This document shows positions 38,433 through 39,496 of a stretch of 64,000 nucleotides of DNA, one piece after another. Under the pieces are notes generated by a model. The model was not told where the DNA came from and searched no databases. It was given only the letters and a program-made list of their open reading frames with translations. Position 1 is the first letter of the stretch, and each line of letters opens with the position of its first letter. The DNA is from Akkermansia sp. Its GTDB lineage: Bacteria; Verrucomicrobiota; Verrucomicrobiia; Verrucomicrobiales; Akkermansiaceae. The translations under genes and the position numbers were made by a program. Location: contig JAZRSQ010000093.1 of NCBI GenBank assembly GCA_045651585.1, positions 19,624-83,623 of the forward strand. The letters are read 5' to 3'.

Positions 38433-38588
38433 TTTCTTAATTTTTGATTATTATAGATTTATAAATTGTATCACCCGTGAAAGGAGTTACCGGAACTTCG
38501 GGGTGTACTTTAGTTGTTTCCGGAATGATATTAACTAGATTGAATAACATTTGCAGAAAAATTCAGAACATTTTGAGGGCGGAATTGG

Positions 38589-38654
38589 TCAACTCAGTTG
38601 CCCGTGGCTACCGCGTTGAGATTCTTCCACCGTATGGAAATTGAATGTTTTCAT
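38589..38654 (-). CDS. Duplicated 21-codon sORF, copy 2 (MKTFNFHTVEESQRGSHGQLS)
   Basis: ATG after an AT-rich spacer following motif A; near-identical to copy 1. Confidence 0.35.
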   Translation of the reverse strand: MKTFNFHTVEESQRGSHGQLS

Positions 38655-38697
38655 AATAATGCTTATGATGATTACTATATTGGGGATAAAGGGGATA

Positions 38698-38848
38698 CAC
38701 CCGTGAAAGGAGTTGCCGGAACTTCGGGGTGCTGAGAATTCATGCTCTACCGATTGAGCGACAGTGACCATTGAAAGACTGTAAGAGGGCCACCGGGCGG
38801 ACTCGAACCGCCAACACTGAACATCAGATTAGAATTGCAGAAAAGTTC
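38698..38848 (-). ncRNA. Y-RNA-like cassette 4 with circularly permuted tRNA mimic
   Basis: B - GGCGG-TTCGAGT-CCGCC - CGGTGGCC/GGTCACTG stem closed by a loop - TC-GCTC-AATCGGTA-GAGC - A. Confidence 0.8.
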
Positions 38849-38872
38849 AGAACATTTTGTGAGCGGAATTGT

Positions 38873-38938
38873 TCAACTCAGTTGCCCTTGGCTACCGCGT
38901 TGAGATTCTTCCACCGTATGGAAATTGAATGTTTTCAT
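38873..38938 (-). CDS. Duplicated 21-codon sORF, copy 1 (MKTFNFHTVEESQRGSQGQLS)
   Basis: Same context as copy 2. Confidence 0.35.
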   Translation of the reverse strand: MKTFNFHTVEESQRGSQGQLS

Positions 38939-38974
38939 AATAATGCTTATGATGATTGGTTGGTAAAGGGGGTA

Positions 38975-39123
38975 CACCCGTGAAAGGAGTTGCCGGAACT
39001 TCGGGGTGCTAGATTTCAGGCTCTACCTCTGAGCTACGGTGACCATTAAGTGGCTGTGAGAGGGCCACCGGGCGGAGTCGAACCGCCGACAATGAACATC
39101 CGGTTACAGTTGCAGAAAAGTTC
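38975..39123 (-). ncRNA. Y-RNA-like cassette 3 with circularly permuted tRNA mimic
   Basis: B - GGCGG-TTCGACT-CCGCC - CGGTGGCC/GGTCACCG - TA-GCTC-AGAGGTA-GAGC - A. Confidence 0.8.
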
Positions 39124-39140
39124 ACGAAAGGGGGAGTGTG

Positions 39141-39274
39141 TGCCCGTGAAAGGGGTTGCCGGAACTTCAGGCACACGAGTTGGTTAAGCCGCAACCTTGT
39201 TGAAGGGATTGCGGACAGCCCGAACCACATAAGAGTGACGGTAAGACCAGTCTATAGTGATTGCAGGAAAGTTC
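39141..39274 (-). ncRNA. Cassette 2, structured non-tRNA cargo between motifs B and A
   Basis: CCGCAATC/GGTTGCGG hairpin within a TGGTT/AACCA stem. Confidence 0.55.
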
Positions 39275-39286
39275 CATGAAGGGGAG

Positions 39287-39433
39287 TCAACCGTATAAGG
39301 AGTTTCCGGAACTTCGGGTCGACAGGTTGCATCAACTGCTCTACCAACTGAGCTAAAGTAGTCAAACCACTTCGCGGACTCGAACCGCGGACCAATTGCT
39401 TACTCTTGCAGGGTGGGGGTTGCAGTAAAGTTC
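39287..39433 (-). ncRNA. Y-RNA-like cassette 1 with circularly permuted tRNA mimic
   Basis: B - CGCGG-TTCGAGT-CCGCG - AAGTGGT-TTG-ACTACTT (7-bp acceptor closed by a 3-nt loop) - TA-GCTC-AGTTGGTA-GAGC - A. Confidence 0.85.
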
Positions 39434-39496
39434 AACAGGAGCTGCCGTTGCTCCTCGGGAGGCAGGAGTGGACAGCGGGTAGTTCCTGTGGGGAGA

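What the first reader, a model, noticed from the sequence alone, without database searches (positions are those of the whole stretch)
38433..39490. Modular RNA array: five variable cargos between constant 5' (B) and 3' (A) boundary motifs
Seen: one promoter (TTGACA-N16-TAATCT) precedes ~1.06 kb ordered B1-[tRNA mimic]-A1, B2-[other structured cargo]-A2, B3-[mimic]-A3, B4-[mimic]-A4, B5-[short AT-rich cargo]-A5, then the ATG. Units measure about 147, 134, 149, 151 and 93 nt. B is GAACTTTTCTGCAA. A is a ~34-nt hairpin with invariant GAAGTTCCGG, an outer stem showing compensatory changes (CACCC/GGGTG, TGCC/GGCA, TCGACC/GGTTGA), and usually a trailing CCCCTT. B's GAACTT can pair with A's AAGTTC, closing each cassette. 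Inference: B/A form the protein-loading or processing site and the cargos are interchangeable adaptor or decoy domains, i.e. a multi-RNA ribonucleoprotein system.
Basis: partly seen in the sequence, partly recalled or inferred. Interest (0 to 1): 0.85.

Follow-up and report, generated by a model that had tools for sequence, protein, structure and literature searches.

The report
Y-RNA-like array beside Ro60-like protein
Upstream of a gene for a distant structural relative of the Ro60 RNA-binding protein lies a transcribed array of five small modular RNAs (three are permuted tRNA mimics), each closed by the same base-paired module; this protein and RNA design recur together across bacteria and many cultured phages, and the RNA is not a described family.

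Summary
The motifs are real, lie on the minus strand, and occur nowhere else in the 64 kb. There are five B...A units behind a conserved TTGACA-N16-TAATCT promoter, directly upstream of a 499-aa DUF2828/DUF7788 gene.

Across 45 units from 19 Verrucomicrobial loci, B (GAACUU) pairs with its own A (AAGUUC) with compensatory changes. The A outer stem also covaries, so each unit is closed by an H-type pseudoknot. Three cargos are circularly permuted tRNA-like domains, matching only the core of Rfam YrlA and falling below its threshold.

The protein model (pLDDT 91) matches Ro60/TROVE structures over its full length. Sequence profiles do not detect that relationship.

Distant DUF2828 genes, including those of Felixounavirus, Listeria, Staphylococcus and Mycobacterium phages, carry adjacent same-strand units of the form 7-bp helix, N2-3, CAGCAA, cargo, helix. 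Of sense CAGCAA motifs, 244/611 show this, against 13/335 antisense. Rfam 15 has no matching family.

Best reading: a second Ro60-like RNP lineage with its own Y-RNA-like partners. Binding, processing and function are inferred, not shown.

The parts
39497..39548 (-). Promoter: A/T-rich upstream stretch, -35 TTGACA (39524-39519), 16-nt spacer, -10 TAATCT (39502-39497)
   Evidence: Sequence. The same TTGACA-N16/17-TAnnnT behind an A/T-rich stretch occurs in L001, L002, L003, L006, L020, L161, L163 and L165. Metatranscriptome contigs stop at 39483/39461/39459 and none crosses 39484-39600.
39434..39491 (-). 5' leader hairpin ending at B1. It starts with the conserved GGAACUACCCGC.
   Evidence: MFE -21.4 kcal/mol, z = -3.0. 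A leader hairpin in the same position is seen in all related loci.
39286..39433 (-). Unit 1: B1 39433-39420; permuted tRNA mimic 39397-39330 (T arm, short closed 'acceptor' hairpin, D arm); A1 hairpin 39323-39286, with the P1 3' strand AAGUUC at 39314-39309; pyrimidine tail to 39277
39138..39274 (-). Unit 2: B2 39274-39261; non-tRNA cargo 39260-39177 (a class also present in L003, L006, L020 and L161); A2 hairpin 39176-39138
38974..39123 (-). Unit 3: B3 39123-39110; permuted tRNA mimic 39095-39013 with a long closed 'acceptor' hairpin; A3 hairpin 39009-38974
38849..38963 (-).
   Evidence: the repeat finder D2; MFE -26.7 kcal/mol, z = -3.5; ORF MKTFNFHTVEESQRGSQGQLS
38697..38848 (-). Unit 4: B4 38848-38835; permuted tRNA mimic 38820-38739; A4 hairpin 38732-38697. 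A recent duplicate of unit 3.
38565..38686 (-). Inter-unit element D2, copy b
38472..38564 (-). Unit 5: B5 38564-38551 (GAAUUU, which keeps a G-U pair with A5); short AU-rich cargo; A5 hairpin 38505-38472
36933..38432 (-). 499-aa DUF2828 + DUF7788 protein: helical-repeat N-terminal domain plus a vWA domain with an intact MIDAS motif (D272-x-S274-x-S276, T342, D374). Ro60-like fold.
   Evidence: Pfam; invariant columns; AF2 pLDDT 91.2, pTM 0.92; Foldseek top 13 PDB hits are all Ro60/TROVE; PHROG 850 'RNA-binding protein', E = 9e-93

Best explanation
The locus encodes a Ro60-like ribonucleoprotein system. One strong promoter drives a precursor that carries five Y-RNA-like small RNAs followed by the mRNA of a DUF2828 protein. 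That protein is a helical-repeat plus vWA/MIDAS protein with the Ro60 fold. Each small RNA has a constant closing module and a variable cargo. In the closing module the 5' B strand GAACUU pairs with AAGUUC inside the loop of the 3' A hairpin. This forms an H-type pseudoknot (P1 stacked on the A stem P2) flanked by the conserved single strands UUCUGCAA and CGGNAACYCCUU. I infer that this module is the docking site for the DUF2828 protein, as the terminal stem of a Y RNA is for Ro60. I infer that the cargos act as adaptors that bring other factors or substrates to the protein, or gate its access. The cargos are three circularly permuted tRNA look-alikes without an anticodon arm, one other structured domain, and one short AU-rich loop. 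Because many relatives sit in phage tRNA arrays, and one lies next to an RtcB-type ligase, the likely field of action is surveillance, repair or turnover of tRNA and other structured RNA. Shown here: the anatomy, base pairing by covariation, transcription, linkage to DUF2828 across phyla and phages, and the protein fold. Inferred: physical binding, cutting of the precursor into units, and the cellular role.
For: (1) The motifs are unique to this locus in 64 kb. (2) I curated 45 units from 19 Verrucomicrobial loci. In P1, the pairs show GC->AU 7 times, UA->CG 3 times and UA->GC 4 times, and all 6 P2 pairs covary. Overall 85.2% of cells are paired against 73.1% in shuffles (0/500). The covariation score is 0.365 against 0.154 (0/500), and slid registers give <=0.12. 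(3) Cognate B_n:A_n pairs better than non-cognate combinations (6.29 vs 5.52 of 7, p = 5e-4), and A_n:B_n+1 scores 5.25. Single-unit loci exist. (4) RNAalifold on 21 mimic units finds the closing stem, T arm, closed acceptor-like stem, D arm and P2, with 19 of 27 pairs showing compensatory change. The Rfam YrlA core matches at E = 3e-6 to 3e-3. (5) The AF2 model (pLDDT 91) has Ro60 structures as its top 13 PDB matches: phage phiLo, Xenopus, human and D. radiodurans Rsr, with 480-590 aligned columns and E = 6e-7 to 2e-4. (6) Family-wide, in the 800 nt upstream of 132 distant DUF2828 genes, SWGCAA occurs 309 times sense vs 74 antisense, and T-loops 94 vs 0. Of sense CAGCAA motifs, 244/611 have a perfect 7-bp partner for the 7-mer that lies 2-3 nt upstream of the motif, against 13/335 antisense and 19/611 with a permuted 7-mer. 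These use 147 distinct helices and occur in 96 of 149 loci. (7) The same units occur in cultured phages: Felixounavirus GEP101, Mycobacterium phage Faith1 ('Ro-like RNA binding protein'), Listeria phage LP-048 (with an RtcB-like ligase nearby) and Staphylococcus phage S-CoN_Ph11. (8) Metatranscriptome contigs cover the array from about the predicted start, at higher depth than the CDS.
Against: There is no direct evidence of protein-RNA contact. No raw reads were available, so no 5'/3' ends could be mapped, and processing into units is unproven. Contig breaks coincide with repeats. The similarity to Ro60 is at fold level only: TM is about 0.5, there is no Pfam TROVE hit and no PDB hit with a sequence profile. 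The YrlA 5' motif GNCGAAN0-1G that marks Rsr binding is absent. Single-sequence folding energies of the units are no better than shuffles. The pseudoknot is inferred from two covarying helices, not modelled or probed. Gene neighbours are not conserved across the clade (ankyrin-repeat genes here, rpsL elsewhere), so context gives little functional help.
Confidence: 0.7

Rival explanations
1. The array is a cis-acting 5' untranslated leader. The repeated modules are binding sites through which the DUF2828 protein, or another factor, feeds back on its own mRNA. The units never act as free RNAs.
For: In this clade the array lies between the promoter and the start codon, with no terminator-like site between A5 and the ATG. 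A metatranscriptome contig links the last unit to the CDS start (X29, 38389-38580).
Against: In Felixounavirus, Mycobacterium phage Faith1 and Staphylococcus phage S-CoN_Ph11 the units lie downstream of the gene, in Faith1 followed by a terminator-like hairpin. The cargos are elaborate, conserved tRNA-like folds with covariation, which a simple operator would not need. Firmicutes relatives put the module inside RNAs with full acceptor stems, as for molecules released by tRNA-processing enzymes. Autoregulation could still exist alongside free RNAs.
Confidence: 0.1
2. The RNAs work independently of the DUF2828 protein, for example as tRNA-shaped decoys or sponges for tRNA-binding enzymes, toxins or nucleases. 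The gene is merely co-located with tRNA-like genes.
For: DUF2828 genes often sit in or beside ordinary phage tRNA arrays. Three cargos mimic the tRNA elbow.
Against: The conserved part of the RNAs is not the tRNA-like cargo. It is the closing helix plus CAGCAA module, which is present with non-tRNA cargos too and tracks the DUF2828 gene across phyla. The mimics lack an anticodon arm, so they cannot serve as decoys for anticodon nucleases. The protein has the fold of an RNA-binding protein whose known partners have the same architecture.
Confidence: 0.12
3. The A-then-B junctions are the repeats of a processing array (CRISPR-like, or a tRNA-precursor-like spacer). They are cut by a nuclease to release cargos, and B does not pair with its own A.
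For: A_n and B_n+1 are adjacent at two junctions (A1/B2, A2/B3), and AAGUUC could also pair with the next GAACUU.
Against: Single-unit loci have B-cargo-A only. A3/B4 and A4/B5 are about 115 nt apart. Where helices have diverged, A_n matches B_n, not B_n+1. No cas-like gene is nearby.
Confidence: 0.03
4. The region holds decayed tRNA genes or a REP-like repeat cluster without a function of its own.
For: The T- and D-arm sequences are tRNA-like. Part of the array is a recent tandem duplication.
Against: The order T arm, closed stem, D arm is permuted and conserved, with compensatory changes. The motifs occur only here in 64 kb. The arrangement is kept beside DUF2828 from 87% down to 39% protein identity, and in altered form down to about 26%. 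The region is transcribed.
Confidence: 0.03

Closest known systems
Bacterial Ro60 (Rsr) with YrlA/YrlB Y RNAs (Salmonella rsr-yrlBA-rtcBA; Chen et al. 2014, PMC4201824)
   Same: The protein is a helical-repeat ring-type domain plus a vWA/MIDAS domain. Several small RNAs are encoded beside it on the same strand. One class carries a circularly permuted tRNA-like domain (T arm, closed acceptor-like stem, D arm) attached to a stem formed by the RNA's 5' and 3' ends. Other classes lack the tRNA-like part. A Listeria phage relative has an RtcB ligase nearby.
   Different: The protein is not detectable as TROVE by sequence; it is Pfam DUF2828/DUF7788. The RNAs fall far below the YrlA gathering score and match only its core. 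The proposed docking module differs: helix plus (C/G)(U/A)GCAA, and here a pseudoknot, rather than GNCGAAN0-1G in a bulged stem. There are up to five units per array.
D. radiodurans Yrn1/Yrn2 and Thermus phage phiLo Ro60 with Yrl1/Yrl2 (PMC4201824; PMC12135203)
   Same: The Y RNAs are encoded upstream of the Ro60 gene. [quoted passage not shown] A phage-encoded Ro60 binds phage-encoded Y-like RNAs. phiLo Ro60 is the best structural match to the protein here.
   Different: Those proteins are bona fide TROVE proteins, and their RNAs carry the CGAA motif. Here both partners belong to different sequence families.
'Ro-like RNA binding protein' / 'RNA-binding protein' annotations of phage DUF2828 homologues (PHROG 850; cluster L mycobacteriophages)
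   Same: It is the same protein family, so the Ro-likeness of the protein had already been noticed by phage annotators.
   Different: No RNA partner is annotated. In the Staphylococcus phage the units lie in a stretch annotated with short hypothetical CDSs. I found no paper that describes the RNAs and no Rfam family.
tRNA genes and tRNA-like structures
   Same: The T-loop and D-loop sequences are those that form the tRNA elbow.
   Different: There is no anticodon arm, the acceptor end is closed by a loop, and the strand order is permuted. ARAGORN and the Rfam tRNA model do not call the window's units.

Membership tests
Ro60 / TROVE protein family | Sequence match to the TROVE domain model or to Ro60 sequences | tested here: not met
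   Pfam scan at E <= 0.01 gives only DUF2828 and DUF7788. A profile of 20 homologues finds no Ro60 chain in the PDB at E <= 10.
Ro60 / TROVE protein family | Fold: helical-repeat domain followed by a vWA domain with a MIDAS motif | tested here: met
   The AF2 model has pLDDT 91.2. The top 13 Foldseek PDB hits are Ro60 from phage, frog, human and Deinococcus over 480-590 columns, TM 0.37-0.54, followed by isolated vWA domains. DxSxS, T and D of the MIDAS motif are invariant in 87 homologues. Ring closure was not inspected.
Ro60 / TROVE protein family | Binds Y RNAs or misfolded RNAs | not testable with these tools
   Needs RIP/CLIP or EMSA.
YrlA (Rfam RF02553) | Score at or above the Rfam gathering threshold (69 bits) over the whole model | tested here: not met
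   37.5, 31.1 and 27.0 bits, covering model positions 23-89 of 114 only.
YrlA (Rfam RF02553) | Permuted tRNA-like domain: T arm, closed acceptor-like stem, D arm, joined by a closing stem | tested here: met
   cmscan alignments. RNAalifold on 21 units, with compensatory changes in the closing stem, T arm and acceptor-like stem.
YrlA (Rfam RF02553) | 5' GNCGAAN0-1G motif thought to contact Rsr (PMC4201824) | tested here: not met
   The 5' segments read GAACUUUUCUGCAA plus variable sequence, and no GNCGAA lies 5' of the T arm.
YrlA (Rfam RF02553) | Encoded within about 4 kb of a TROVE-annotated Ro60 gene on the same strand | tested here: not met
   The adjacent same-strand gene is DUF2828/DUF7788.
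Y RNA in the broad sense (works-like test) | Terminal stem made by the 5' and 3' ends that carries a conserved element, with a variable internal module; several per locus beside the protein gene | tested here: met
   P1 covariation. Cargo classes vary. There are 1-5 units per locus.
tRNA gene | Cloverleaf with an anticodon arm and an open acceptor stem, recognised by tRNA finders | tested here: not met
   ARAGORN finds only tRNA-Ala at 58136. There is no RF00005 hit in 38300-39700 at E <= 10.
REP-like or CRISPR-like repeat array | Repeats dispersed in the genome, or repeat-spacer units with cas genes | tested here: not met
   The motifs are confined to this locus within 64 kb. No cas or defence hit was found apart from ankyrin-type PDC-M72A. 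A whole genome was not available.

The most novel reading that the evidence does not exclude
DUF2828 proteins form a second, large Ro60-like lineage: about 4,850 clusters at 50% identity and homologues in about 700 sequenced phages. The lineage has its own undescribed partner RNA family, defined by a terminal 7-bp helix, N2-3 and CAGCAA, into which interchangeable cargos are plugged. The same design exists in three topologies: with termini at the helix (most bacteria and phages); with termini at a tRNA acceptor stem and the helix closed into a hairpin, as in the Firmicutes 'tRNA with a 45-nt insert' arrays; and with a pseudoknot clamp, as in this Akkermansia-related clade. Arrays would then be sets of adaptors that programme one protein for several RNA or protein targets during stress or phage infection.
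Probability: 0.55. Interest if true: 0.85.

Novelty: new variant of a known kind. Interest (0 to 1): 0.78.

Why it matters
Ro60 and its Y RNAs are a conserved but still poorly understood RNA-surveillance system, and Ro60 is a human autoantigen. In bacteria the system has been studied in only a handful of species.

If this reading is right, a much larger sister system has gone unnoticed. Its protein carries only 'domain of unknown function' labels. Its RNAs are unannotated, or overlaid with spurious short ORFs, in model phages of E. coli, Salmonella, Listeria, Staphylococcus and Mycobacterium, and in gut Akkermansia relatives.

The system can be tested directly in tractable phage-host pairs. 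It offers natural experiments in RNA design: circular permutation of a tRNA-like RNA, pseudoknot versus simple-stem closure, and swappable cargos. It would also explain a recurrent unexplained neighbour of phage tRNA arrays. For annotation, it adds a new RNA family model and a functional name for DUF2828/DUF7788.

Tried and rejected
(1) I asked whether the ~115-nt inter-unit element D2 is a decayed copy of the gene's 5' end, because its 21-codon ORF begins MKTFNF and the gene begins MNTFTY. The local DNA alignment scores 27 against a shuffle mean of 20.9 (sd 3.7), which is not significant, so I dropped the idea.

(2) An automatic B/A unit finder with loose rules was too noisy. I replaced it with hand-curated anchors and, for the wider family, a strict search with controls.

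(3) Single-sequence folding z-scores of the units are not significant. The structural case therefore rests on covariation alone.

(4) RNA end mapping was not possible. All RNA runs holding the region are stored as assembled contigs. A search with an Akkermansia single-unit locus found nothing useful.

(5) I could not compare array copy number in near-identical strains, because their contigs end at the repeats.

(6) The A motif is absent from the viral contig collection, so this clade-specific form is not phage-borne there.

(7) The structure of the second cargo class stays unresolved with 7 sequences.

(8) The 2018 and 2020 Wolin-lab reviews and Burroughs & Aravind 2016 are not held in the library. 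I cannot exclude that one of them mentions DUF2828 as a Ro relative.
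Full report
ANATOMY. Everything lies on the minus strand. An A/T-rich stretch precedes TTGACA (39524-39519), a 16-nt spacer and TAATCT (39502-39497). A 58-nt leader hairpin follows (39491-39434; z = -3.0).

Five units follow, each starting with B (GAACUUUUCUGCAA, at most one mismatch) and ending with an A hairpin that contains the invariant GAAGUUCCGG. 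They span 39433-39286, 39274-39138, 39123-38974, 38848-38697 and 38564-38472. The ATG of a 499-codon ORF is at 38432.

Both motifs occur five times in the 64-kb window and only here (expected 0.07 and 0.5).

They separate A3 from B4 and A4 from B5. Units 3 and 4 together with this element form a recent tandem duplication of about 280 nt.

The flanking genes are ordinary chromosomal ones (aroB, M29 peptidases, an RND pump; GC about 57%). The closest relatives are Akkermansia MAGs from animal guts.

CARGOS. Units 1, 3 and 4 match the core of Rfam YrlA only (model positions 23-89; 37.5, 31.1 and 27.0 bits; gathering score 69). ARAGORN finds no tRNA there.

I ran RNAalifold on 21 such units from related loci. 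It gives a 4-bp closing stem, a T arm, a closed acceptor-like stem-loop, a D arm and the A outer stem, and 19 of 27 pairs carry compensatory changes. These cargos are therefore circularly permuted tRNA look-alikes without an anticodon arm, as in YrlA.

Unit 2 carries a different cargo that recurs in four related loci. Unit 5 has a short AU-rich cargo.

THE CLOSING MODULE. Homologues of the protein at 39-87% identity were fetched with their flanks. Nearly all carry B-cargo-A units directly upstream on the same strand, from one to five per locus, with different cargo sets. Two loci showed no such unit upstream: L011 (44% identity), and L012, whose protein match is only partial.

I curated 45 units and aligned the B and A windows (alignment A3). 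Counting a named structure on that alignment gave these results:
- The six core pairs of P1 (B GAACUU with A AAGUUC) include GC->AU 7 times, UA->CG 3 times, UA->GC 4 times and CG->UA once.
- All six pairs of the A outer stem (P2) covary.
- 85.2% of cells are paired against 73.1% in shuffles (0 of 500 shuffles reach it).
- The covariation score is 0.365 against 0.154 (0 of 500).
- Slid registers score at most 0.12.

Where helices have diverged within one locus, B_n matches A_n better than other A's (6.29 vs 5.52 of 7 pairs, p = 5e-4) and better than the A_n:B_n+1 combination (5.25). Single-unit loci confirm that the unit is B-cargo-A.

The P1 3' strand lies inside the loop closed by P2. Two covarying helices in that arrangement imply an H-type pseudoknot. 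It would have conserved single strands UUCUGCAA (after P1 5') and CGGNAACYCCUU (after P1 3'). The pseudoknot itself is an inference.

THE PROTEIN. Pfam sees DUF2828 and DUF7788, not TROVE. A sequence profile finds no solved relative.

An AlphaFold2 model from 87 homologues is confident (pLDDT 91.2, pTM 0.92). Its 13 best PDB matches are all Ro60: Thermus phage phiLo, Xenopus, human and D. radiodurans Rsr. They align over 480-590 columns with TM 0.37-0.54 and E = 6e-7 to 2e-4. Isolated vWA domains come next.

The MIDAS residues and several arginines and lysines of the helical domain are invariant.

PHROGs labels the family 'RNA-binding protein'. Cluster L mycobacteriophage annotators call it 'Ro-like RNA binding protein'. 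The family is large: 4,853 clusters at 50% identity and 694 phage records.

THE WIDER RNA FAMILY. In the 800 nt upstream of 132 distant DUF2828 genes, [CG][AT]GCAA occurs 309 times on the sense strand and 74 times on the antisense strand. T-loop motifs occur 94 times sense and never antisense.

Reading these loci shows a common unit: a 7-nt strand, N2-3 (often UAA), CAGCAA, a cargo, the complementary strand, then UG or GU.

A strict count over 149 loci gave 244 of 611 sense CAGCAA motifs with a perfect 7-bp partner. The antisense figure is 13 of 335, and a control with a permuted 7-mer gives 19 of 611. The hits use 147 different helices and fall in 96 loci.

The same units are present in cultured phages:
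- Felixounavirus GEP101 has four units inside the tRNA array just downstream of the gene, one with a permuted tRNA mimic.
- Mycobacterium phage Faith1 has three units downstream, one of them a mimic.
- Listeria phage LP-048 has three units upstream, with an RtcB-like ligase and an HD phosphohydrolase a little further on.
- Staphylococcus phage S-CoN_Ph11 has three units downstream, in a stretch annotated with short hypothetical CDSs.

In Lachnospiraceae and Oscillospiraceae loci the arrays are instead ~115-nt RNAs. They hit the Rfam tRNA model over its full length but carry a ~45-nt insert after the D arm: a covarying hairpin followed by N3 and the invariant CAGCAA. Going round the molecule the order is the same as in the window's mimic units (helix, CAGCAA, T arm, acceptor, D arm, helix). 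These are therefore circular permutations of one design, with the ends at the acceptor stem instead of at the helix.

Rfam 15 has no family for any of these units. I found no paper describing them.

EXPRESSION. Four gut metatranscriptomes hold contigs covering 38964-39483, 39020-39461 and 39067-39459. None crosses the promoter region. Depth over the array (13-16) exceeds depth over the CDS (3-8). This fits transcription from the predicted start. The data are assembled contigs, so RNA ends and processing cannot be judged.

INTERPRETATION. The closest known system is Ro60 (Rsr) with its Y RNAs. The parallels are:
- a helical-repeat plus vWA protein;
- several small RNAs encoded beside it on the same strand;
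- a terminal stem that carries the protein-binding element;
- variable modules, including a permuted tRNA mimic;
- polycistronic synthesis in Deinococcus;
- linkage to RtcB in Salmonella (PMC4201824), and phage versions (PMC12135203).

The locus works like that system but is not a member of its families. The TROVE model, the YrlA threshold, the GNCGAA motif and the TROVE neighbourhood were all tested and not met.

I therefore file it as a new variant of a known kind: a second Ro60-like RNP lineage with its own RNA family. The window shows a clade-specific pseudoknotted form of it, in an unusually long five-unit array.

The cis-regulatory, decoy, processing-array and junk readings are each contradicted by specific observations, set out under the rival explanations. 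The first two could still hold in part.

CAVEATS. No binding, processing or phenotype data exist. The Ro60 relationship is structural only. Three relevant reviews or analyses could not be read. The protein's Ro-likeness is already reflected in phage annotation, so the new element is the RNA partner and its architecture.

Noticed in passing
window 38849-38963 and 38565-38686 (minus strand): Two 94%-identical copies of a ~115-nt element lie between units. It has a stable hairpin (z = -3.5) and a 21-codon ORF (MKTFNFHTVEESQRGS[Q/H]GQLS). It has no B/A motifs. A short stretch (AAUCAUAAGC) recurs in the inter-unit spacers of L002. Its role is unknown.
   Followed up: partly
window 36041-37015 and 39573-41060 (minus strand): Ankyrin-repeat proteins flank the array and gene on both sides. 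They give weak hits to the PADLOC candidate PDC-M72A. The same ankyrin plus 273-aa plus 129-aa gene order follows the gene in the 87-98% identical relatives (L161, L173, L174), but not in more distant ones, which sit next to rpsL.
   Followed up: partly
L041, L053, L068, L071, L073, L076, L079 (about 300-1900 nt upstream of the DUF2828 gene): Firmicutes loci carry arrays of 3-6 RNAs of ~115 nt. They score as full-length tRNA in Rfam but are not called by ARAGORN. Each has a ~45-nt insert (hairpin, N3, CAGCAA) between the D arm and a short anticodon-like hairpin.
   Followed up: partly
L171 5207-6090; L172 3930-4200; L176 2128-2390; L177 3985-4190: Unannotated helix-NNN-CAGCAA units occur in cultured phages of E. 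coli, Mycobacterium, Listeria and Staphylococcus. In the Staphylococcus phage the same stretch is annotated with short hypothetical CDSs. In the Listeria phage an RtcB-like ligase lies 1.3 kb downstream.
   Followed up: partly
L006 813-2309 and about 6798 onward: One Akkermansia MAG contig carries two DUF2828 paralogues about 4.5 kb apart. Each has its own promoter and B/A array (3 and 2 units).
   Followed up: no
window 39480-39491 and the equivalent place in L001, L002, L003, L161: The first transcribed bases read GGAACUACCCGC, a B-like sequence that forms the 5' arm of the leader hairpin. More distant loci instead have a GC-rich hairpin with a GCAA loop in front of B1.
   Followed up: no
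window 42274-44495 (plus strand): Two tandem M29 aminopeptidase paralogues (369 and 368 aa), followed by a calcineurin-like phosphoesterase.
   Followed up: no
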